Shown: in pieces, positions 1-41,957 of the stretch
How the letters are laid out: every line of letters starts with the position of its first letter
How positions within the stretch are numbered: position 1 is the stretch's first letter
IMG/VR virus record: IMGVR_UViG_3300045988_159394
Coordinates: 1 to 41,957 of that record
Reading direction: 5' to 3' (one strand)
From: a virus
DNA: 41,957 nucleotides
Program-made: the position numbers and the translations under genes
The notes under the pieces: generated by a model
What the model saw: only the letters and a program-made list of their open reading frames with translations
What the model was told of the DNA's origin: nothing
The model's database searches: none

Positions 1-534
1 ACCTGGGAAGATATAGACTTCAAGAAGAATGTGGTCAAGGTATCAAAAACACTCTACAATCCGACGAATAACGCTGAAAAATATGAGCTTCTCCCTCCAA
101 AAACTGAAACGTCGGTCCGGGTCGTCACCATGCCGGCACACCTGGAAAAGGTACTGGCGGCATTCAAGTTCCAAGTCTCTAAACTCCGGATGGAATATAA
201 AGAGTTGTGGCACTATCCCAATGGCAGTAAACTGGGCTTCGTTTTTACGGCTCCGGCCCATCCTGGCCATCCTCTTACCCAGCGTCTCGTACAGACTCGT
301 ATAGACCGCATTCAGCGGCTTATGGATAATCCGGTGAGCCTTCACATACATCCTCACATTTTTCGTCATACCCATGCTTCCCTGCTGGCAGAGGCCGGGA
401 TAGACCTGGTACAAATCATGAAACGCTTAGGCCATGCCGACGATACGACGACACGACAGATATATCTGCACATCACAAAAACGCTGGCCACGGAAACGGC
501 AGAAAAGTTTGATGACCTGTTAAACAAAGCATAA
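1..534 (+). CDS. Tyrosine integrase, C-terminal part (in-frame continuation of the ORF that starts at 41194; about 392 aa in total across the circular junction)
   Basis: Position 1 is in frame with the ORF at 41194..41957 through the 119-nt terminal overlap. Catalytic boxes present: RIGEALAL, HIFRHTHASLL, LGH, RQIY. Stop TAA at 532-534. Confidence 0.9.
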   Translation, partial: TWEDIDFKKNVVKVSKTLYNPTNNAEKYELLPPKTETSVRVVTMPAHLEKVLAAFKFQVSKLRMEYKELWHYPNGSKLGFVFTAPAHPGHPLTQRLVQTRIDRIQRLMDNPVSLHIHPHIFRHTHASLLAEAGIDLVQIMKRLGHADDTTTRQIYLHITKTLATETAEKFDDLLNKA

Positions 535-3031: not shown

Positions 3032-4135
3032 CTAAATTAAGTTAATGGTATAGATAAGTTCAGCCAGCGTTTTATGCGTGTACACCCGCTTTGTTATGCC
3101 GTCCTGCTGATGCCCCAATATCATTTTCACGCATACGTCATTAGCTCCGGCAGAATTTAACAGGCTGGCACATGTATGCCTTGTCTCATGCAAGGTATGC
3201 ACCAGCCCAAGCCGTTTTAGCGCTTTTTCGTACCGCTCGTGATAAGATGTATAGCTGTACTTTTTTCCGGCCCGGTTAAGCACAAATATGTTTTTATCCT
3301 GGCAACGTGTCTCCCAGAATGGCAAAACTTTTTCGGCAATCGGAACGTGACGGTTCCTGCCCGCAGCCGTTTTGCTATCCCGTACTAGAAACCATCGTTC
3401 CGGAAGATGCACGTCCACAACCTTTAGCGCCAGTAGCTCGCCAATACGGACGCCGCAGTAAATCAACATAAGGATTTCCTGAATAGCCTCATCGTCCGTA
3501 TGCCCCCAGAGAAGGTCGATTTCTTCACGGCTATACGGCCGCTTCTTGTATACCGGGATGTTCTTCCCCAGTTCTAAGTACTGTGCGTAATTTTTATCTA
3601 CGATATCAGTCTTGCAAGCGTACTCATACAGCTGATATAGCAGTGTTTTGACTTTCTTCTGGCTGGAATATGACAATCCTTTTTCTCGTACTTTGTCCAT
3701 CACCGCCTGGATTTGCTTATATCGAACATCGATGAAAGACATCCTCCAGAGGTCTGAGCAATACGCATAAGCTGACTCATAACTTGTTTTTGAACTACTG
3801 CCGATCATGGGCCATTTTTCCTGTTTCCATTCGTGATACAGCTCTTCGAATGTCGGGCCGTCGGCTTTCGACCGAACAAACTTGCCACCGTTGAGCTTAA
3901 GCAGATACCTGAACGCCTCCTCCCGTGTTTCAAAACTGCCGAGATATTTCTGCCTGCCTTCAATACTTTTGCATATCGCATATGGTTTGCGGCGGTTGCC
4001 ACCCATTTTGCGAATGCATCCAAACCCGTTAGGCAACCGCATAGCCTCACCTCCTTTTATAATTTCTTCCGCGACCATCGTAAGGTCGTCAATAATGCTA
4101 CTAATTTCGGTGCATACGATTTTCCAATTTTCCAT
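3032..4135 (-). CDS. Second tyrosine recombinase (lambda-Int-like, with an AP2-like arm-binding N-domain), nested between the lysis and tail-fibre genes
   Basis: N-terminal RLPNGFGCIRKMGGNRRKPYA...GSFETREEAFRYL (Integrase_AP2-like). Catalytic GVRIGELLAL, HETRHTCASLL, ILGH, RVYTH. RBS GGAGG-10nt-ATG; an alternative GTG start at 4141. Confidence 0.85.
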   Translation of the reverse strand: MENWKIVCTEISSIIDDLTMVAEEIIKGGEAMRLPNGFGCIRKMGGNRRKPYAICKSIEGRQKYLGSFETREEAFRYLLKLNGGKFVRSKADGPTFEELYHEWKQEKWPMIGSSSKTSYESAYAYCSDLWRMSFIDVRYKQIQAVMDKVREKGLSYSSQKKVKTLLYQLYEYACKTDIVDKNYAQYLELGKNIPVYKKRPYSREEIDLLWGHTDDEAIQEILMLIYCGVRIGELLALKVVDVHLPERWFLVRDSKTAAGRNRHVPIAEKVLPFWETRCQDKNIFVLNRAGKKYSYTSYHERYEKALKRLGLVHTLHETRHTCASLLNSAGANDVCVKMILGHQQDGITKRVYTHKTLAELIYTINLI

Positions 4136-4159
4136 AGCCACTAAGCCTCCTTCGTGGCT

Positions 4160-36518: not shown

Positions 36519-36758
36519 TTATAGAATCCAGTCCTTCTCCTGTTTTAAGATGTCGTATATCATGGCCGGCACATTGTCACAAGCGATATTCACATACTGT
36601 ACCGACCCAGACAACAGATCCGTTACCTCGACCAGTTCATTCCCCAGGAGAACAAACTGGAAATGCTTGTCATCCAATGCCAGCATCCTTTCAAAGTAAT
36701 ACAATGCTTTTACTTTTTTTCGTCGCTCTTCCATAATCAAATCATCTATCTGGATCAT
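36519..36758 (-). CDS. Hypothetical protein (79 aa)
   Basis: RBS GGAGGAGAAAGGAG-ATG. Confidence 0.5.
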   Translation of the reverse strand: MIQIDDLIMEERRKKVKALYYFERMLALDDKHFQFVLLGNELVEVTDLLSGSVQYVNIACDNVPAMIYDILKQEKDWIL

Positions 36759-36777
36759 CTCCTTTCTCCTCCCGGTC

Positions 36778-36786
36778 TGGTATAAT
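36778..36786 (+). promoter_or_regulatory. Extended -10 promoter TGGTATAAT for the plus-strand gene 36810..37253
   Basis: Same nonamer as at 25846; followed by GAAGGGAGGTGA and then ATG. Confidence 0.5.
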
Positions 36787-36809
36787 GACCATGAAGGGAG
36801 GTGATAACT

Positions 36810-37253
36810 ATGCGTATTAATATAGATTTGCTAAGGAACATTCTTTTAGATGTTGCTGATTGTCCAGCGTTAACAGTTGCTAATAGCCATTGTTTTACCT
36901 ATCCGCAAACATCTCAAGCTGAAATCAATTACCATATTTACCTTTTAGTTAATCAAGGGTATTTAAGTGGTATCGATGCAAGTTCAAAAACAGCCCCATA
37001 CTATTATTTGAACATCGGGTTGACGTTAACAGGCCAATCCTTTTTAGACTCCGTATCTGATGATACTGTTTGGAAGAAAACAAAATCTTATATGAAAGAA
37101 CACGCTATTGAACTTTCATTTAAGCAATATCATTTGTTGCAACTCATATTTCTACTACTTAATTTTTCGATTTCCCCGGCAATTGATTGGTCTAATATGA
37201 GCATCAATTGCCGGGTATTTTTCCTGTCCCAATGCGGGACGGTTTTCATTTGA
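36810..37253 (+). CDS. Plus-strand moron, DUF2513-like protein (family assignment tentative)
   Basis: MRINIDLLRNILLDVAD...YHIYLLVNQGYLSG. Own promoter and RBS. The 3' third overlaps a well-supported minus-strand ORF, so the true C-terminus is uncertain. Confidence 0.45.
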   Translation: MRINIDLLRNILLDVADCPALTVANSHCFTYPQTSQAEINYHIYLLVNQGYLSGIDASSKTAPYYYLNIGLTLTGQSFLDSVSDDTVWKKTKSYMKEHAIELSFKQYHLLQLIFLLLNFSISPAIDWSNMSINCRVFFLSQCGTVFI

Positions 37254-37339
37254 TCAATGAAATAATTTTCCATCGTAATCAGCGTCTGTAATCTCATTAA
37301 TTGGAAACGCCGACTATCTGGCTGTTCTTCTTTTATCAT
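37130..37339 (-). CDS. Hypothetical protein (69 aa)
   Basis: RBS GTAAGGAGGG-7nt-ATG. Confidence 0.5.
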   Translation of the reverse strand: MIKEEQPDSRRFQLMRLQTLITMENYFIDQMKTVPHWDRKNTRQLMLILDQSIAGEIEKLSSRNMSCNK

Positions 37340-37422
37340 GTGTATGCCCTCCTTACAATTCCAATACCACTCTCGATATAGTGAAAGATTTGGGAATAGC
37401 TATTACAAAGCAATGGTTAGGC

Positions 37423-37593
37423 TTATAATTCTTCCCATAAATCCATAGTCTGCAATTTGGCTTTCACAACTTCCATAATGGCCTTTACTTGATAAAACTT
37501 CACATGGTTCATTGCTAATACAGAAATAATTTCGTTAGCAATATTTTCATAATGGGTCCTGTCTTCGCAGGGCCTTTTTTCCTTGTTTGTCAT
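37423..37593 (-). CDS. Small protein (56 aa), absent from the ORF track
   Basis: Translated by hand: MTNKEKRPCEDRTHYENIANEIISVLAMNHVKFYQVKAIMEVVKAKLQTMDLWEEL. RBS AAGGAGG-7nt-ATG. Confidence 0.5.
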   Translation of the reverse strand: MTNKEKRPCEDRTHYENIANEIISVLAMNHVKFYQVKAIMEVVKAKLQTMDLWEEL

Positions 37594-37612
37594 GTGCTCG
37601 CCTCCTTGAGCT

Positions 37613-37834
37613 CTAATTTTTTGTATCTTTTAAAGATACTTCATCAGTAAAAAAAATATCTTCGATGCTCTTGTTTAAGATAGATGAAACTTTCTTAGCG
37701 TCATCAAGAGAGAATTTTGTACTCCCGTTCTCTTTCTTACTATAAGCGCTCTTCGTTTCGAGCCCAAGAACTTCAGCCATATCTTCACATGTCAGGCCTT
37801 TTTCTTTTCTTAACGCTCTAAGTCTTTCAAACAT
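37613..37834 (-). CDS. Cro-like XRE-family HTH regulator
   Basis: MFERLRALRKEKGLTCEDMAEVLGLETKSAYSKKENG. RBS AGGGGGTGA. Divergent from the repressor gene. Confidence 0.75.
   Translation of the reverse strand: MFERLRALRKEKGLTCEDMAEVLGLETKSAYSKKENGSTKFSLDDAKKVSSILNKSIEDIFFTDEVSLKDTKN
37622..37638. promoter_or_regulatory. Distal operator-like perfect palindrome GTATCTTTTAAAGATAC
   Basis: Carries the same GTATC/GATAC half-sites as the switch-region operators; lies at the 3' end of the cro-like gene. Confidence 0.4.
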
Positions 37835-37865
37835 CTTCTCACCCCCTATCAAGTGTTTCCTCTTG

Positions 37866-37908
37866 GGATACTTAAAGTATACGAGTTATTTTGTATCTTG
37901 TCAAGATA
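37866..37908. promoter_or_regulatory. Genetic-switch operators: palindromes GATACTTAAAGTATAC and TATCTTGTCAAGATA overlapping the P-cro -10 and -35
   Basis: GTATC/GATAC pentamers recur at least 7 times between 37860 and 38010. P-cro on the minus strand is TTGACA (37899-37904), 17 nt, TATACT (37876-37881). Confidence 0.6.
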
Positions 37909-37943
37909 TATCGAAAGTAAAATTTCCAATTAGGAAACTCCCA

Positions 37944-37972
37944 TTGAGTATCTTTAATGGAAACATTATAAT
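37944..37972 (+). promoter_or_regulatory. Putative repressor promoter TTGAGT-17-TATAAT
   Basis: Read directly. A GTATCTTTAA half-site overlaps the spacer. Confidence 0.45.
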
Positions 37973-38020
37973 TTACATAGAATCGTTTTCGGATACTTTA
38001 TATAAAGGTCAGGTGATAAA

Positions 38021-38440
38021 TTGATGAACAGAGTTAAAGAATTACGAAAACAAAAACATATCACACAGGAAGAATTAGGGAAAGTGCTCGATATCCAAAA
38101 GGCAGCCATTTCTAAATATGAAAATGGTCGTGCAGAACCAAGCACAGAAGTGCTCAAGAAGATGTCCGCCTATTTTGGCGTATCTATTGATTATTTGCTT
38201 GGCAATTCTACATCAAAAGAGATTCCCAACTCTAATCTTCCACCGCTTACCCCTAAAGATGAACGTGACATAGCGCGTGATCTTGAAAATATGATAGAAT
38301 CACTGGACGGATCCGCGGCCATGGGGAGTACCGAAGACGATGAAGACCGCGAGCTATTACGGGCCTCCTTGGAAACGGCCATGAAGATAGCCAAACGGAC
38401 CGCCAAGAAGAAGTTCACCCCGAAAAAATATCAGAAATAA
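38021..38440 (+). CDS. XRE-family HTH repressor (CI/ImmR-like)
   Basis: N-terminal VKELRKQKHITQEELGKVLDIQKAAISKYENGRAEPS; acidic C-terminal tail; followed by the ImmA-like protease gene. Confidence 0.8.
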   Translation: MMNRVKELRKQKHITQEELGKVLDIQKAAISKYENGRAEPSTEVLKKMSAYFGVSIDYLLGNSTSKEIPNSNLPPLTPKDERDIARDLENMIESLDGSAAMGSTEDDEDRELLRASLETAMKIAKRTAKKKFTPKKYQK

Positions 38441-38467
38441 GTTATTCTTTAAAGGTGGTGATGCTCT

Positions 38468-38893
38468 ATGGATGTAAAAAAAATCGCCGTACAAACGGCG
38501 AAAAAATATCAAACATGGAATCCATATGAAATTGCAGAGGCTCGCGGCGTACAAATCATATATGCTCCGCTAAAGTCTATTCTCGGCTATTACACAAAAT
38601 ACAAACGGATTCAATGCATCATTCTGAATGATAATCTTCCCTCCCATTTGCAACGCTTCGTCTGTGCCCACGAGCTCGGCCATTCCATTTGTCATACCAA
38701 CTTGAATACGCAGTGGCTGAGAAAAAACACTCTGGTATCGACAGACAGAATCGAACGGGAAGCCAGCACCTTTGCCGTCGAACTGCTATTGCCTGATGAC
38801 CTCATCCGGGAATATCCCGAATACACCCTCGAACGCCTAGGGAAAATAGCCGGAATACCTCTTGATTTATGTTTTTTGAAGAAGTTCTATTGA
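38468..38893 (+). CDS. ImmA/IrrE-family zinc metalloprotease (anti-repressor protease)
   Basis: HEXXH motif CAHELGHSICH; 141 aa; directly downstream of the XRE repressor gene. Confidence 0.75.
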   Translation: MDVKKIAVQTAKKYQTWNPYEIAEARGVQIIYAPLKSILGYYTKYKRIQCIILNDNLPSHLQRFVCAHELGHSICHTNLNTQWLRKNTLVSTDRIEREASTFAVELLLPDDLIREYPEYTLERLGKIAGIPLDLCFLKKFY

Positions 38894-38915
38894 ATTACGA
38901 AACTATATAAATGAG

Positions 38916-39566
38916 GTGAATATTATGCACATTTTTTCAGGTCTTATAGCGCTGCTTGCGCTAGGTCTACTAATTTTCGGATTTATAAAAAAGGATACAT
39001 TAAGATTGCATCAGGATGAATCCCAGGTCACATTCAAGCAATATGTCTTGAGCTGTCTTTTTTTTCTTGTCTTGGGAGGAATCTGCTTCATTATAACTGA
39101 TTCCCCAAGTGAATCTAACAACGCTCCGGCAACGCAGCCAACCAAACAAGAACAGCAGAATACAGGGTCAGCAAAGGATTCCGCTAGTACGCCGGCAGAA
39201 CAAATCGAACAAATTTGTCGGCAAAAAGCAGGGGACAAACACTTTACTAAAGTTGAAGTCAACGAAGACATGTCTAAAGAAAATTTTGGTAAAGGGAAAT
39301 TAATTGTTTTGCCTTATGTTAAAGATGAAGCAGGATTCCGGCAAACGGGTTTCGCATTGTCTGGGGAAATTATCCGAGCCCTCTATGAATCTGGACTGTC
39401 GATTTCGGAGGTCACCGTCTTCATTCAGGATATGAGTGAACACACGACCATGAAATGTACCATGAATGAAAAAACTGCTAAGAACATCAACTGGGATACT
39501 GTATCATATAAGCATTTTGATAAATACCTGGACGATGTATGGATGATTCCACAACTGCGTAAATAG
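38916..39566 (+). CDS. 2-TM membrane protein with an extracytoplasmic domain (candidate superinfection-exclusion / lysogenic conversion protein)
   Basis: TM1 IFSGLIALLALGLLIFGF, TM2 VLSCLFFLVLGGICFII; AT-rich; located between the repressor and int. Confidence 0.5.
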   Translation: MNIMHIFSGLIALLALGLLIFGFIKKDTLRLHQDESQVTFKQYVLSCLFFLVLGGICFIITDSPSESNNAPATQPTKQEQQNTGSAKDSASTPAEQIEQICRQKAGDKHFTKVEVNEDMSKENFGKGKLIVLPYVKDEAGFRQTGFALSGEIIRALYESGLSISEVTVFIQDMSEHTTMKCTMNEKTAKNINWDTVSYKHFDKYLDDVWMIPQLRK

Positions 39567-39568
39567 CC

Positions 39569-39808
39569 ATGGAAGGCGATGTCGTCATCGTGAAGAAGCA
39601 GCCGACCGTCGATTCCGGCGACATCGCCATCGTCCTGGTCAATGGCGATGAGGCCACCGTGAAGCGCGTCAAGAAACAGCCCGAAGGAATTACCCTCATC
39701 GCCACCAACACCAGCGTGTACGAGCCCCATTTCTATTCCAACAAAGAAATCGCCGACCTTCCAGTCCGTATCCTCGGAAGAGTCGTGGAGTTGCGGGGGA
39801 AGATGTAA
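39569..39808 (+). pseudogene. Stand-alone, GC-rich S24 (LexA/CI) peptidase C-terminal domain fragment that lacks the Ser nucleophile
   Basis: MEGDVVIVKK...GDIAIVLVNGDEATVKRVKK...GRVVE aligns to LexA from the M of GDSM onward. The Lys is present and the Ser is absent. About 58% GC against about 38% in the neighbours. Confidence 0.5.
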
Positions 39809-39828
39809 CATAGGAAAGGATGTGTATT

Positions 39829-40299
39829 ATGAGCGAATTACCAATAGATGTTGAAATAATCCTTCATGAAGCGAAACAGTTTTTAGATAGCCATGCTGAT
39901 TTCCCTGCATTACACAATACGATAAAATTAAATGGACTTGGGCAAAGAACTAAATATGAGTATATCGTAGACGTAAATCGAAAATACTGCTCGTTAAACC
40001 GAATCACTTACCATCAGCGCGTATTTACAAACGTCACGTTACTTCGCCTGGACATCGACACGAAGCCGCATCGGAATCCAGATGGCCAAAAAATAAGCGG
40101 CACACATTTACATGTGTACCGCGAAGGTTATGGAGATAGCTGGGCATATGAATTGAATGATCCGGCATTACATAATTTATGGCCAGAATTTGATTTTTCC
40201 ACTCTAACCCAAGGGGATTTAGTTAATAAGTTTTACGCCTTTGCTAATCTTTGCAATTTTACGAATGAAATTTTATTTGGCACACCATTAGATATTTAG
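39829..40299 (+). CDS. Hypothetical accessory protein (157 aa), AT-rich
   Basis: RBS GGAAAGGA-9nt-ATG (MSELPIDV...). Confidence 0.5.
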   Translation: MSELPIDVEIILHEAKQFLDSHADFPALHNTIKLNGLGQRTKYEYIVDVNRKYCSLNRITYHQRVFTNVTLLRLDIDTKPHRNPDGQKISGTHLHVYREGYGDSWAYELNDPALHNLWPEFDFSTLTQGDLVNKFYAFANLCNFTNEILFGTPLDI

Positions 40300-40304
40300 C
40301 TAGA

Positions 40305-41063
40305 TTAAGCAAAAACTTTAACGTTAGCTTCACGATCAGACCATAGAAGTGGGCTTATATCATATTGACGGAAACTTGCTACAACAGAATCATTGATTTT
40401 TTGGCTATCATTAATAAGAACAATTAATTTTTCGTCGTTACCACGTGCTTCTTTCGTATCTCCCCAAGAAAAAATGATTCGTTCCGCATTGGAACGGCTA
40501 ACCGTATTCATTAGATTGATAAAACGTTGAGGGTTTCTTTTATTACGTTGCAACACGAAATGATACGTATGGCTGAACCCTGATTTCCCCATGACGCTCA
40601 TCCCTTCGGAATAATAAATTTCATGGGAATCAAAAAACAGCTTCACTTCTTCAAAAAAGAGGCTTTTGATGTTTGGTGACGACAAATAGAACATATCATT
40701 AATATCCAACATCCCTTGGATTATACGGTGTTGGATAGAAGGCAATTCCGATTTAGAGCATTCCGCATAAAGGGCTTCTTGCTTTTCATCCAATTTAATG
40801 CCTAAACGATTCAAGGATTGTTGTAATAATTCTTTCCGTTTAGGAGTGTTGAAGTCCATCCCGCACATTGATAAATCAGCTAACGTATATCCGCCATCGC
40901 TGACTTTAAATAGGCCATCGTGCATGTCTTTAACGTAAATTTGCGTATAATCATTGTGCCGGTCCAAAAAGGGAGTAGTTATTTCGCATAATCCTGGCTC
41001 AATTTCAGTCTGAGTCATATTGTCTTTGAGCCATTTTAAATAATTATCGATATGGTCAATCAT
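40305..41063 (-). CDS. Hypothetical accessory protein (about 252 aa), AT-rich, convergent with 39829..40299
   Basis: Start placed at MIDHIDNY with AAGGGGGGGTGA-4nt-ATG. The ORF track's longer frame would run into the int start. Confidence 0.5.
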   Translation of the reverse strand: MIDHIDNYLKWLKDNMTQTEIEPGLCEITTPFLDRHNDYTQIYVKDMHDGLFKVSDGGYTLADLSMCGMDFNTPKRKELLQQSLNRLGIKLDEKQEALYAECSKSELPSIQHRIIQGMLDINDMFYLSSPNIKSLFFEEVKLFFDSHEIYYSEGMSVMGKSGFSHTYHFVLQRNKRNPQRFINLMNTVSRSNAERIIFSWGDTKEARGNDEKLIVLINDSQKINDSVVASFRQYDISPLLWSDREANVKVFA

Positions 41064-41193
41064 ATAATCACCCCCCCTTATATTCTTCATTTTAGCACAC
41101 CTGTTCTTGACCAAACAAGATAAAAATAGAAAAATGCCGGCACCATGCTGGAGCACGATACCGAGAGATGCCGACAAAGGAAGGAGGTAAAGC

Positions 41194-41957
41194 ATGCACG
41201 TTTACAAAAAGCCGTCAGGGCTATGGGCCTATAAAATTGACATTGGTAAAAACCCCCGAACTGGGAAACGGCAGCAGAAAGAAAAAGGTGGTTTTAAGCG
41301 GGCAAAGGATGCCAGGATAGCTGGTGAAGAAGCACTGCAGCGGTATCGGAACAAGGGCTTTGCACGCCCGGAAGCGGTGACGTTTGGCGATTTTGCCCAG
41401 GAATGGCTGAAGGCATACGCGGTTTCCGCCAAAATATCATCCGTCCGGATCCGGAAGCATCAGCTGGGGCACCTCAACCGGTACTTTGAAAAAATCCCTA
41501 TCCAGGGAATCCATAAGAAGCAATACCAGGACGCCTTATTGTCCCTTGCAAAGACGCTTGCTCCTAATACTATTTCAGGGATTCATGCCACGGCCAAAAT
41601 GATTTTCAAACGGGCCATAGAATATGAGCTTATCTATTCAGACCCGACGGAGTTTGCTACAGTACCCCGGCCAAAGCGGAAAATCGTAGATCCAGACGAA
41701 AATGTGCCCGCCTATCTGGAAAAGTCTCAGCTTCTCGATTTCCTGCAAACAGCCAAAGAAAAAGGAATCACGCCCGATTATCCTTTATTTATGCTTCTGG
41801 CTTATACGGGCTTGCGGATTGGAGAGGCCCTGGCTCTCACCTGGGAAGATATAGACTTCAAGAAGAATGTGGTCAAGGTATCAAAAACACTCTACAATCC
41901 GACGAATAACGCTGAAAAATATGAGCTTCTCCCTCCAAAAACTGAAACGTCGGTCCG
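41194..41957 (+). CDS. Tyrosine integrase, N-terminal part (AP2-like arm-binding domain); continues at window position 1
   Basis: RBS AAGGAGGT-5nt-ATG. MHVYKKPSGLWAYKIDIGKNPRTGKRQQKEKGGFKRAKDARIAGEEAL. In frame with 1..534. Confidence 0.9.
   Translation, partial: MHVYKKPSGLWAYKIDIGKNPRTGKRQQKEKGGFKRAKDARIAGEEALQRYRNKGFARPEAVTFGDFAQEWLKAYAVSAKISSVRIRKHQLGHLNRYFEKIPIQGIHKKQYQDALLSLAKTLAPNTISGIHATAKMIFKRAIEYELIYSDPTEFATVPRPKRKIVDPDENVPAYLEKSQLLDFLQTAKEKGITPDYPLFMLLAYTGLRIGEALALTWEDIDFKKNVVKVSKTLYNPTNNAEKYELLPPKTETSV
41839..41957. repeat. Terminal redundancy: these bases duplicate positions 1..119 exactly, marking the window as a circular genome
   Basis: Exact 119-nt identity read directly from the sequence. 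Confidence 0.95.

What the first reader, a model, noticed from the sequence alone, without database searches (positions are those of the whole stretch)
39569..39808. GC-rich orphan S24 peptidase C-terminal domain with no N-terminal HTH and no catalytic serine
The ORF aligns with the LexA/CI C-terminal domain from the methionine of the GDSM motif onward. It keeps the Lys (TVKRVKK) but the Ser nucleophile is missing, because the upstream sequence is an unrelated membrane-protein gene. Its GC content (about 58%) is far above that of the neighbouring accessory genes. The phage's actual repressor system is of the ImmR/ImmA type. This looks like a relic of a displaced CI-type repressor, or a stand-alone oligomerisation-domain fragment that could act as a dominant-negative partner of a host LexA/CI-like protein.
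Basis: partly seen in the sequence, partly recalled or inferred. Interest (0 to 1): 0.55.

Follow-up and report, generated by a model that had tools for sequence, protein, structure and literature searches.

The report
Leftover tail of replaced phage repressor gene
The 79-codon ORF is the leftover 3' end of a LexA/CI-type repressor gene, cut off when this Megasphaera phage took on a different (ImmR/ImmA) immunity cassette; it is an ordinary recombination scar, not a new kind of protein.

Summary
ORF 39569-39808 (79 aa) matches only the C-terminal part of Peptidase_S24 (profile positions 51-116 of 116, E=4.5e-14). It keeps the catalytic Lys (K32 = E. coli LexA K156) and lacks the Ser, the Ala-Gly cleavage site and the HTH.

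One detail is wrong. Met1 is not the Met of the G-x-S-M motif. It aligns with LexA M126, six residues further on.

Sibling phages settle the origin. In L083 and L085 the DNA matching window 39569-41175 (95-96% identical, homology starting exactly at 39569) is the 3' end of an intact 205-214 aa HTH+S24 repressor. The same two downstream genes follow it there. L084 and L022 (Megasphaera) share the replication genes and the integrase. So about 3 kb (36.5-39.57 kb: cro-like, ImmR, ImmA, membrane protein) replaced cro plus the 5' part of cI.

At least seven independent truncation junctions of this gene occur in related prophages. Several have no start codon and one has a frameshift. The window copy has no Shine-Dalgarno motif. 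Its low dN/dS reflects recombination with intact alleles.

The high GC is typical of the S24-coding segment in intact genes as well. Verdict: a recombination relic, low interest. A dominant-negative role is untested and unlikely.

The parts
39569..39808 (+). 3' remnant (79 codons plus stop) of a CI/LexA-type S24 repressor gene. It keeps the Lys (K32) and lacks Ser, the cleavage site and the HTH.
   Evidence: Pfam PF00717 positions 51-116/116, E=4.5e-14. LexA 126-175 mapping. 91-94% aa identity to the C-termini of the intact repressors L083, L084, L085 and L022.
39564..39571 (+). Recombination junction 'A': stop codon TAG of the membrane-protein gene, then CC, then ATG. The ATG is inherited from the parental ...RMMEGD codons.
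   Evidence: blastn homology to the intact-CI phages L083/L085 starts exactly at 39569. The mosaic map shows the same. L137 and L003 carry the identical junction. No SD motif lies in the 25 nt upstream.
39569..39629 (+). 5' third of the remnant (KKQPTVDSGD allele). This is a different allele patch from the rest of the fragment.
   Evidence: 18-20 of 61 nt differ from L083-85, against 6-8 of 179 nt in the rest. The allele type is shared with L011 and L003.
39630..39828 (+). 3' two-thirds of the remnant plus the intergenic Shine-Dalgarno (AGGAAAGGA) of the next gene. It is near-identical to intact CI genes.
   Evidence: 6-8 differences in 179 nt against L083/L084/L085. Homology runs through the stop codon and RBS.
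36524..39568 (.). Incoming immunity cassette, about 3 kb, that replaced cro plus the 5' part of cI. It holds DUF2513, small ORFs, the cro-like HTH gene, ImmR-like, ImmA-like and the membrane protein.
   Evidence: This stretch has no homology to the sibling phages L084 and L022, which match the window on both sides: 33.6-36.5 kb, and 39569 onward plus the integrase.
37613..37852 (-). cro-like HTH gene, divergent from the immunity operon.
   Evidence: HTH_3 at 1.7e-11. Divergent promoter-like sites at 37904-37876 (-) and 37944-37972 (+).
38024..38440 (+). ImmR-like XRE repressor. It has no S24 domain.
   Evidence: HTH_3 at 2.3e-20. Called as 138 aa in L001.
38468..38893 (+). ImmA-like M78 metalloprotease.
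   Evidence: Peptidase_M78 at 2.9e-22; PHROG 87 metallo-protease.
38925..39566 (+). Membrane-protein gene, the last gene of the incoming cassette. Its stop codon abuts the remnant.
   Evidence: ORF list. Called as 213 aa in L001. PHROG 8263, function unknown.
39829..40299 (+). DUF6978 / PDC-M24A cargo gene. In sibling phages it lies directly downstream of the intact cI.
   Evidence: Pfam DUF6978 at 5.8e-30. PADLOC PDC-M24A at 2.7e-32. Contiguous 95-96% homology to L083/L085.
40305..41063 (-). DUF1828/DUF1829 / PDC-M24B cargo gene.
   Evidence: Pfam. PADLOC PDC-M24B at 1.1e-85. Called as 252 aa in L001.
41194..41957 (+). Integrase gene, 5' part. It continues at window 120-534 because the window is a circular assembly with a 119-nt terminal repeat.
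   Evidence: L001 gene call of 392 aa, Phage_integrase. 119-nt terminal repeat and an open frame of at least 389 aa across the ends. Shared with L084/L022.

Best explanation
The ORF is a non-functional 3' remnant (a recombination scar) of a CI/LexA-type prophage repressor gene.

Origin. The ancestor of this Megasphaera phage had the layout cro <-> cI(HTH+S24) -> cargo (DUF6978, DUF1828/9) -> int, as its siblings L083 and L085 still do. An illegitimate recombination event joined the 3' end of a foreign immunity cassette to the middle of cI. That cassette holds a cro-like gene, an ImmR-like repressor, an ImmA-like M78 protease and a membrane protein. The event deleted the HTH, the cleavage site and the Ser nucleophile. 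The last 79 codons of cI and the ribosome-binding site of the next gene remained.

Expression (inferred). The ATG is simply the parental Met codon of ...SMEPRMMEGD... The remnant is probably co-transcribed in the immunity operon. It has no Shine-Dalgarno motif and is unlikely to be made in useful amounts. It cannot be a protease or a DNA-binding repressor.

Why it looks intact (inferred). The remnant is young. It also keeps recombining with intact cI alleles of co-circulating phages. The conserved S24-coding segment therefore acts, as DNA, as a homology 'handle' through which downstream cargo is swapped.

Shown: truncation, breakpoint, intact counterparts, recurrence, mosaicism.

Inferred: lack of protein function, and the role as a recombination substrate.
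For: (1) Window 39569-41175 is 95.3% and 96.1% identical to L083 5001-6598 and L085 5001-6604. Homology starts exactly at 39569. In those phages this DNA is the 3' end of an intact 214/205-aa protein with HTH_3 plus the full Peptidase_S24 profile 1-116/116, VAG|IP and GHSMEP.

(2) L084 and L022 (Megasphaera MAG) share the replication genes, the S24 segment and the integrase. They differ only in the roughly 3-kb immunity stretch.

(3) In one-genome-per-species data, 55 of 56 relatives are full-length HTH+S24 repressors. In IMG/VR about 69 of 73 are.

(4) At least seven independent truncation junctions (A-G) of the same gene occur at the same genomic position in related prophages. Junctions C, F and G have no start codon at their 5' end. 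The fragment at L012 8686/8801 has a 1-nt frameshift. L137 has a cluster of private non-synonymous changes.

(5) No SD-like motif precedes 39569, whereas the other operon genes have GGTG or AGGA motifs.

(6) Mosaicism. Nt 62-240 differ at 6-8 of 179 positions from intact alleles, while nt 1-61 differ at 18-20 of 61. L003 has the same junction but is 98.3% identical to L078 from 48 nt into the fragment through the cargo. L137 has the same junction with another allele and other cargo.

(7) The GC and GC3 of the fragment equal those of the same segment in intact genes.

(8) The junction is reproduced on 15 contigs.
Against: The ORF is intact, with an ATG located 2 nt after the upstream stop codon, so translational coupling is possible. 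It shows no private mutations relative to intact alleles. Window and L003 share junction A and encode identical proteins despite 18 synonymous differences. That could in principle reflect purifying selection on the truncated protein rather than gene conversion. AF2 models the fragment as a compact beta structure, although an MSA-driven model does not show that it folds on its own. No expression data were available.
Confidence: 0.85

Rival explanations
1. The fragment is translated, by coupling to the membrane-protein gene. It then works as a catalytically dead S24 C-terminal piece that binds the C-terminal domain of CI repressors of sibling phages (91-94% identical) or of host LexA. It would act as a dominant-negative or anti-repressor, or as a decoy for RecA*.
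For: The ORF is intact, with the ATG 2 nt after the upstream stop. There is no + strand terminator within the operon. It is 91-94% identical to the CTD of competitor phages that use the same integrase. Two junction-A copies encode identical protein with 18 synonymous differences. The AF2 model has pLDDT 88.8.
Against: There is no SD motif. The ATG is inherited rather than acquired. Equivalent fragments in other phages lack start codons or are frameshifted, yet look equally 'conserved'. This shows that conservation here comes from recombination with intact genes. The fragment lacks LexA residues 75-125. From my own knowledge, that stretch includes the cleavage-site strand and part of the beta core. 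There is no PADLOC hit.
Confidence: 0.07
2. It is a genuine HTH-less S24 accessory protein of the UmuD/UmuD' type, and not a fragment of a repressor.
For: PHROG 811 'UmuD-like' at E=9.8e-8. The database holds many 109-139 aa HTH-less relatives.
Against: The Ser nucleophile and the cleavage site are absent. The flanking genes are a membrane-protein gene and DUF6978, with no polymerase domain among the neighbours scanned. At least one short database relative is a gene-call artefact: the '84-aa' P0018 is the tail of an intact ~206-aa repressor ORF in L020. Others (L011, L012-17) are truncations in their own right. Nearly all genomic relatives carry an HTH.
Confidence: 0.02
3. It is a sequencing or assembly artefact. 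On this view a frameshift or chimeric join hides a full-length repressor gene.
For: None beyond the abrupt change in composition at 39569.
Against: The same junction appears on 15 contigs from different samples and assemblers, and in L137 and L003 with different flanks. No HTH or N-terminal S24 remnant exists in any frame upstream. The upstream DNA is a complete, conserved gene.
Confidence: 0.01

Closest known systems
LexA / lambda CI-type prophage repressors (MEROPS family S24; Pfam PF00717 with an N-terminal XRE HTH), here the intact repressors of the Megasphaera phages L083, L084, L085 and L022
   Same: 91-94% amino-acid identity over the last 79 residues. Same genomic position and the same downstream genes. 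The catalytic Lys is retained. The predicted structure matches the LexA, CI and UmuD C-terminal domains.
   Different: It lacks the HTH domain, the linker, the Ala-Gly cleavage site and the Ser nucleophile. Only profile positions 51-116 are present. It therefore cannot bind DNA or self-cleave.
UmuD / UmuD' (HTH-less S24 proteins)
   Same: A small S24-only polypeptide. There are weak PHROG UmuD-like hits and weak PDB UmuD hits.
   Different: UmuD keeps Ser60, Lys97 and a cleavage site, and partners with UmuC. Here Ser and the site are absent. No polymerase domain was found among the neighbouring genes scanned.
Gene remnants at module boundaries of mosaic temperate phages (modular-exchange model; own knowledge, not tested as a family)
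   Same: A truncated gene lies exactly at the border between a swapped immunity module and a conserved flank. The truncations are recurrent and independent. Recombination within the conserved segment is visible.
   Different: Nothing essential. The only particular feature is that the conserved flank is the S24-coding half of the repressor gene itself.
ImmR/ImmA-type immunity (ICEBs1 / phi105-like; XRE repressor plus M78 anti-repressor protease)
   Same: The cassette that displaced cI encodes an HTH_3 protein followed by a Peptidase_M78 protein.
   Different: The S24 remnant is not part of that system. ImmA cleavage of ImmR was not tested here.

Membership tests
Peptidase S24 (LexA/CI/UmuD) | Significant match to the S24 profile or fold | tested here: met
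   PF00717 at E=4.5e-14, but only positions 51-116/116. Foldseek hits to the LexA CTD with TMq 0.73-0.79.
Peptidase S24 (LexA/CI/UmuD) | Ser nucleophile in the G-x-S-M motif (LexA S119) | tested here: not met
   The fragment starts at the position of LexA M126. Intact relatives have GHSMEPRMMEGD and the window starts at the last M.
Peptidase S24 (LexA/CI/UmuD) | General-base Lys (LexA K156) | tested here: met
   K32 in ATVKRVKK aligns with LexA K156. It is invariant in alignments A2 and A3.
Peptidase S24 (LexA/CI/UmuD) | Ala-Gly (or Cys-Gly) self-cleavage site | tested here: not met
   VAG|IP is present in intact relatives about 43 residues upstream of the fragment start. It is absent from the window.
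LexA/CI-type transcriptional repressor | N-terminal HTH DNA-binding domain in the same polypeptide | tested here: not met
   There is no HTH in the ORF. tblastn of 50 full-length relatives finds HTH similarity only in the separate ImmR-like and cro-like genes.
LexA/CI-type transcriptional repressor | RecA*-stimulated autocleavage and dimerisation | not testable with these tools
   This needs biochemistry. Catalysis is impossible without the Ser.
UmuD-like accessory protein | Intact Ser-Lys dyad plus a cleavable N-terminal arm, with an adjacent Y-family polymerase gene | tested here: not met
   The Ser and the arm are absent. The neighbours scanned are a membrane protein, DUF6978 and DUF1828/9.
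ImmR/ImmA immunity module (neighbouring genes, not the fragment) | XRE-HTH repressor gene followed by an M78 (IrrE/ImmA) metalloprotease gene | tested here: met
   HTH_3 at 2.3e-20 and Peptidase_M78 at 2.9e-22, adjacent and co-oriented.

The most novel reading that the evidence does not exclude
The remnant is kept because it is useful in two ways. As DNA, the conserved S24-coding segment is a homology handle. It lets this ImmR/ImmA phage keep swapping defence cargo with CI-type sibling phages. As protein, the ORF is translated at a low level by coupling. The product would be a catalytically dead CTD piece that interferes with the 91-94% identical CI repressors of competitor prophages that use the same integrase.
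Probability: 0.06. Interest if true: 0.6.

Novelty: already known. Interest (0 to 1): 0.18.

Why it matters
It matters mainly for annotation. Public databases label this fragment and its many relatives as 'repressor LexA', 'LexA family protein' or 'S26 family signal peptidase'. The window copy cannot be a protease or a repressor.

The locus is also a clean, datable example of an immunity-module swap. A CI-type system was replaced by an ImmR/ImmA-type system, with the breakpoint resolved to the nucleotide.

In Megasphaera prophages, the conserved S24-coding half of cI lies next to the variable cargo region between the repressor and the integrase. It carries repeated truncation junctions and crossovers. 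That is useful context for studying how defence cargo moves between phages. It opens no new mechanistic question.

Tried and rejected
- Megablast of 38000-41957 against INPHARED phages gave no match.
- Rfam at E<=0.1 on 37000-41957 found nothing, so no RNA element explains the segment.
- PADLOC gave no hit for the fragment or for the membrane protein.
- Pairwise dN/dS is very low: 0.01-0.25 against both truncated and intact copies. I do not take this as evidence of function. The mosaic map shows that the differences come from exchange with intact alleles, and start-less fragments show equally low values.
- The 'private variant' test (nucleotides never seen in any intact allele) had little power. 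With 72 diverse intact alleles, synonymous sites are saturated. The window fragment has zero private sites.
- I considered whether junction A derives from junction B by deletion. It would need two separate deletions, so this stays unresolved.
- I considered a fusion with the membrane protein by read-through or frameshift. The two ORFs are in different frames and I saw no slippery motif by eye. I did not pursue this.
- Two literature searches (Megasphaera prophage repressor; truncated repressor dominant negative) returned nothing specific to this case.
- A search for inverted repeats around the second recombinase gave only weak pairs.

Full report
**What is there.** Window 39569-39808 (+) is an open frame of 79 codons. 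It matches Pfam Peptidase_S24 at E=4.5e-14, well above the gathering score, but only over profile positions 51-116 of 116. It also matches the PHROG CI-like and transcriptional repressor families. phmmer against PDB aligns residues 1-52 with E. coli LexA 126-175. So Lys32 (ATVKR) is LexA K156, and Ser119 would lie seven residues before the first codon. An AF2 model (pLDDT 88.8, built with an MSA, so it does not show autonomous folding) superposes on LexA, lambda CI and UmuD C-terminal domains. TM normalised to the query is 0.7-0.79, but only about half of the target domain is covered.

Met1 is not the Met of G-x-S-M. Intact relatives read GHSMEPRMMEGD, and the window starts at the last Met.

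**Surroundings.** The window is a circular assembly of a roughly 41.8-kb tailed temperate phage. It has a 119-nt terminal repeat and the integrase gene spans the ends. It is 100% identical to the metagenome contig L001.

The genes run as follows:
- a cro-like HTH gene (37613-37852, minus strand), facing divergent promoter-like sites;
- an ImmR-like HTH_3 gene (38024-38440);
- an ImmA-like Peptidase_M78 gene (38468-38893);
- a membrane-protein gene (38925-39566);
- the S24 fragment;
- DUF6978 (39829-40299);
- DUF1828/1829 (40305-41063, minus strand);
- the integrase.

No + strand terminator-like site interrupts 38021-40300, and Rfam finds nothing. The fragment's ATG lies 2 nt after the TAG of the membrane-protein gene, with no Shine-Dalgarno-like motif. 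Every other gene of the operon has a GGTG or AGGA motif.

**Where it comes from.** Close homologues are abundant in gut metagenomes and in Megasphaera genomes.

I extended the reading frame upstream in 56 genome loci, one genome per species. 55 are full-length proteins of 197-349 aa with diverse XRE-type N-termini and a conserved S24 C-terminus. The same holds for about 69 of 73 IMG/VR loci. At least one short database entry is a gene-call artefact. In L020 the '84-aa' protein P0018 is the tail of an intact ~206-aa repressor ORF.

Window 39569-41175 is 95.3% identical to L083 5001-6598 and 96.1% identical to L085 5001-6604. Homology begins exactly at 39569. In those phages the same DNA is the 3' end of an intact repressor, with HTH_3 plus Peptidase_S24 1-116/116, VAG|IP, GHSMEP and TVKR. 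The same DUF6978 and DUF1828/9 genes follow it directly.

L084 and L022 (a Megasphaera MAG) share the replication genes (window 33.6-36.5 kb), the S24 segment and the integrase. They do not share the 36.5-39.57 kb stretch. So about 3 kb carrying the cro-like gene, ImmR, ImmA and the membrane protein replaced cro and the 5' part of cI.

tblastn of 50 full-length repressors finds no other S24 or HTH remnant in any frame of the window. The junction recurs on 15 contigs from different samples and assemblers, so it is not an artefact.

**Recurrence.** The same gene is truncated at no fewer than seven different points in related prophages, always between the immunity genes and the integrase-proximal cargo:
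- A: window, L001-L010, L137;
- B: L018, L019, L092;
- C: L078-L082, L089;
- D: L011;
- E: L012-L017, L093;
- F: L093, L087, L012;
- G: L097, L098.

Several prophages carry both an intact cI and a downstream fragment (L019, L079-82, L087, L089, L097/98). Junctions C, F and G have no start codon at their 5' end. The junction-F fragment in L012 has a 1-nt frameshift. L137 has a cluster of private non-synonymous changes. L079-82 are also broken at their 3' end. These are clearly scars, yet their amino-acid sequences look as 'conserved' as the window copy.

**Why it looks conserved.** Pairwise dN/dS values are low, at 0.01-0.25. One junction-A copy (L003) encodes the identical protein with 18 synonymous differences.

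The nucleotide map explains this by mosaicism:
- Nt 62-240 of the window fragment differ at only 6-8 of 179 sites from the intact genes of L083-85, whereas nt 1-61 are a different allele patch with 18-20 of 61 differences.
- L003 carries junction A but is 98.3% identical to L078 from 48 nt into the fragment through the whole cargo.
- L137 carries junction A with another allele and different cargo.

So the fragments keep exchanging sequence with functional cI alleles. Crossovers inside the fragment have re-assorted the downstream cargo. Low dN/dS is therefore inherited from intact donors and says nothing about selection on the fragment. I could not separate post-truncation substitutions from imported ones. 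The private-variant test had no power for the window copy, which has zero private sites.

**GC content.** The fragment is 55.8% GC with GC3 of 0.76. Its immediate neighbours are 37-44% GC. The same 240-nt segment in the intact genes of L083-85 and L022 is 53-56% GC with GC3 of 0.64-0.74, while their HTH-coding 5' ends are 38-44% GC. The window's helicase, primase and tape-measure genes are 53-56% GC. The contrast reflects AT-rich cargo and immunity genes around a normal-GC gene piece. It does not point to an exotic origin.

**Mechanism and verdict.** Best explanation (confidence about 0.85): this is a recombination relic with no protein function.

Shown: the truncation, its exact breakpoint, intact counterparts at the same locus, recurrence, and mosaic exchange.

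Inferred: the peptide is not made in meaningful amounts, because it has no SD motif and only an inherited ATG. If made, it would be inert, because it has no Ser, no cleavage site, no HTH, and lacks LexA residues 75-125. The segment's only ongoing 'activity' would be as a DNA substrate for homologous recombination.

The dominant-negative idea remains possible. The ORF is intact, it is positioned for translational coupling, and it is 91-94% identical to the CTD of competitor phages' CI. It has no positive evidence, and I put it at about 0.06-0.07. The UmuD-like and artefact readings are rejected.

**Comparison with known families.** By homology this is a piece of an S24 LexA/CI-type repressor. 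It fails the defining features of a functional member: the Ser nucleophile, the cleavage site and the HTH are not met, and only the Lys and part of the fold are retained. Remnants of this kind at module boundaries are a familiar outcome of modular exchange in temperate phages (own knowledge). Interest is therefore low. The practical value lies in annotation, and in a well-resolved example of a switch from CI-type to ImmR/ImmA-type immunity next to a variable cargo region.

Noticed in passing
window 1-119 and 41839-41957: The window ends repeat its first 119 nt exactly, the signature of a circular assembly at k=119. The contig L001 (k119_170941, 46 kb) is 100% identical and wraps around. The integrase gene (41194-41957, then 120-534) spans the ends.
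   Followed up: yes
window 39829-40299 (+) and 40305-41063/41195 (-): The two cargo genes after the fragment (DUF6978 and DUF1828/DUF1829) match the PADLOC candidate defence pair PDC-M24A (2.7e-32) and PDC-M24B (1.1e-85). In L003 and L078 the second gene is in the opposite orientation.
   Followed up: partly
window 3032-4141 (-): A second tyrosine recombinase (Phage_integrase at 2.8e-20) sits between the lysis genes and the tail-fibre genes, far from the lysogeny module. It might be a DNA invertase for tail-fibre switching. Only weak inverted repeats were found nearby (2863-2888/4572-4597, 73% complementary).
   Followed up: partly
L020 5635-6255 (also L021); proteins P0018, P0024 and similar: At least one short S24 entry in the protein collection is a gene call starting at an internal Met of an intact ~206-aa HTH+S24 repressor: the '84-aa' P0018 in L020. 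The '121-aa MAGIPIE' entries start at the GTG codon of ...VVAGIPIE; in L012-L017 they lie on truncated remnants. Lengths in such tables can wrongly suggest a family of stand-alone short proteins.
   Followed up: yes
L019 5960-6000 versus L018 5960-6000: L019 has a different upstream gene (548 aa, SNIPE/T5orf172). It still ends with the same 12 nt (CTGCGTAAATAG) as the membrane-protein gene of L018 and the window, just before the S24 remnant. This looks like nested scars from successive module replacements.
   Followed up: partly
L079-L082 5001-5252: Here the S24 remnant is also broken at its 3' end. It is fused in frame to an unrelated tail (…AVELR|TDPNRRILFDATKDLSKDDIDIVLNLINGLKAKEGKK). An intact 205-aa CI lies 1.2 kb upstream in the same prophage. 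This version occurs on more than 24 contigs.
   Followed up: partly
window 39425-39811 (-): A 128-aa antisense ORF overlaps the fragment. It is most likely a by-product of the fragment's high GC3 (0.76). It is not called as a gene in the identical contig L001.
   Followed up: partly
window 38925-39566 (+): A membrane protein with two hydrophobic N-terminal stretches lies directly after ImmA. It has only unknown-function PHROG matches (8263, 25008). Its position in the lysogenic operon would suit a superinfection-exclusion protein. The same gene is the left partner of junctions A and B.
   Followed up: no
CI genes of L083, L084, L085, L022: Within single intact repressor genes the HTH-coding 5' 240 nt are AT-rich (GC 0.38-0.44, GC3 0.31-0.40). 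The S24-coding 3' 240 nt are GC-rich (0.53-0.56, GC3 0.64-0.74). The N-terminal domains are unrelated between phages that share near-identical C-terminal domains. This suggests domain-level shuffling inside the repressor gene.
   Followed up: partly
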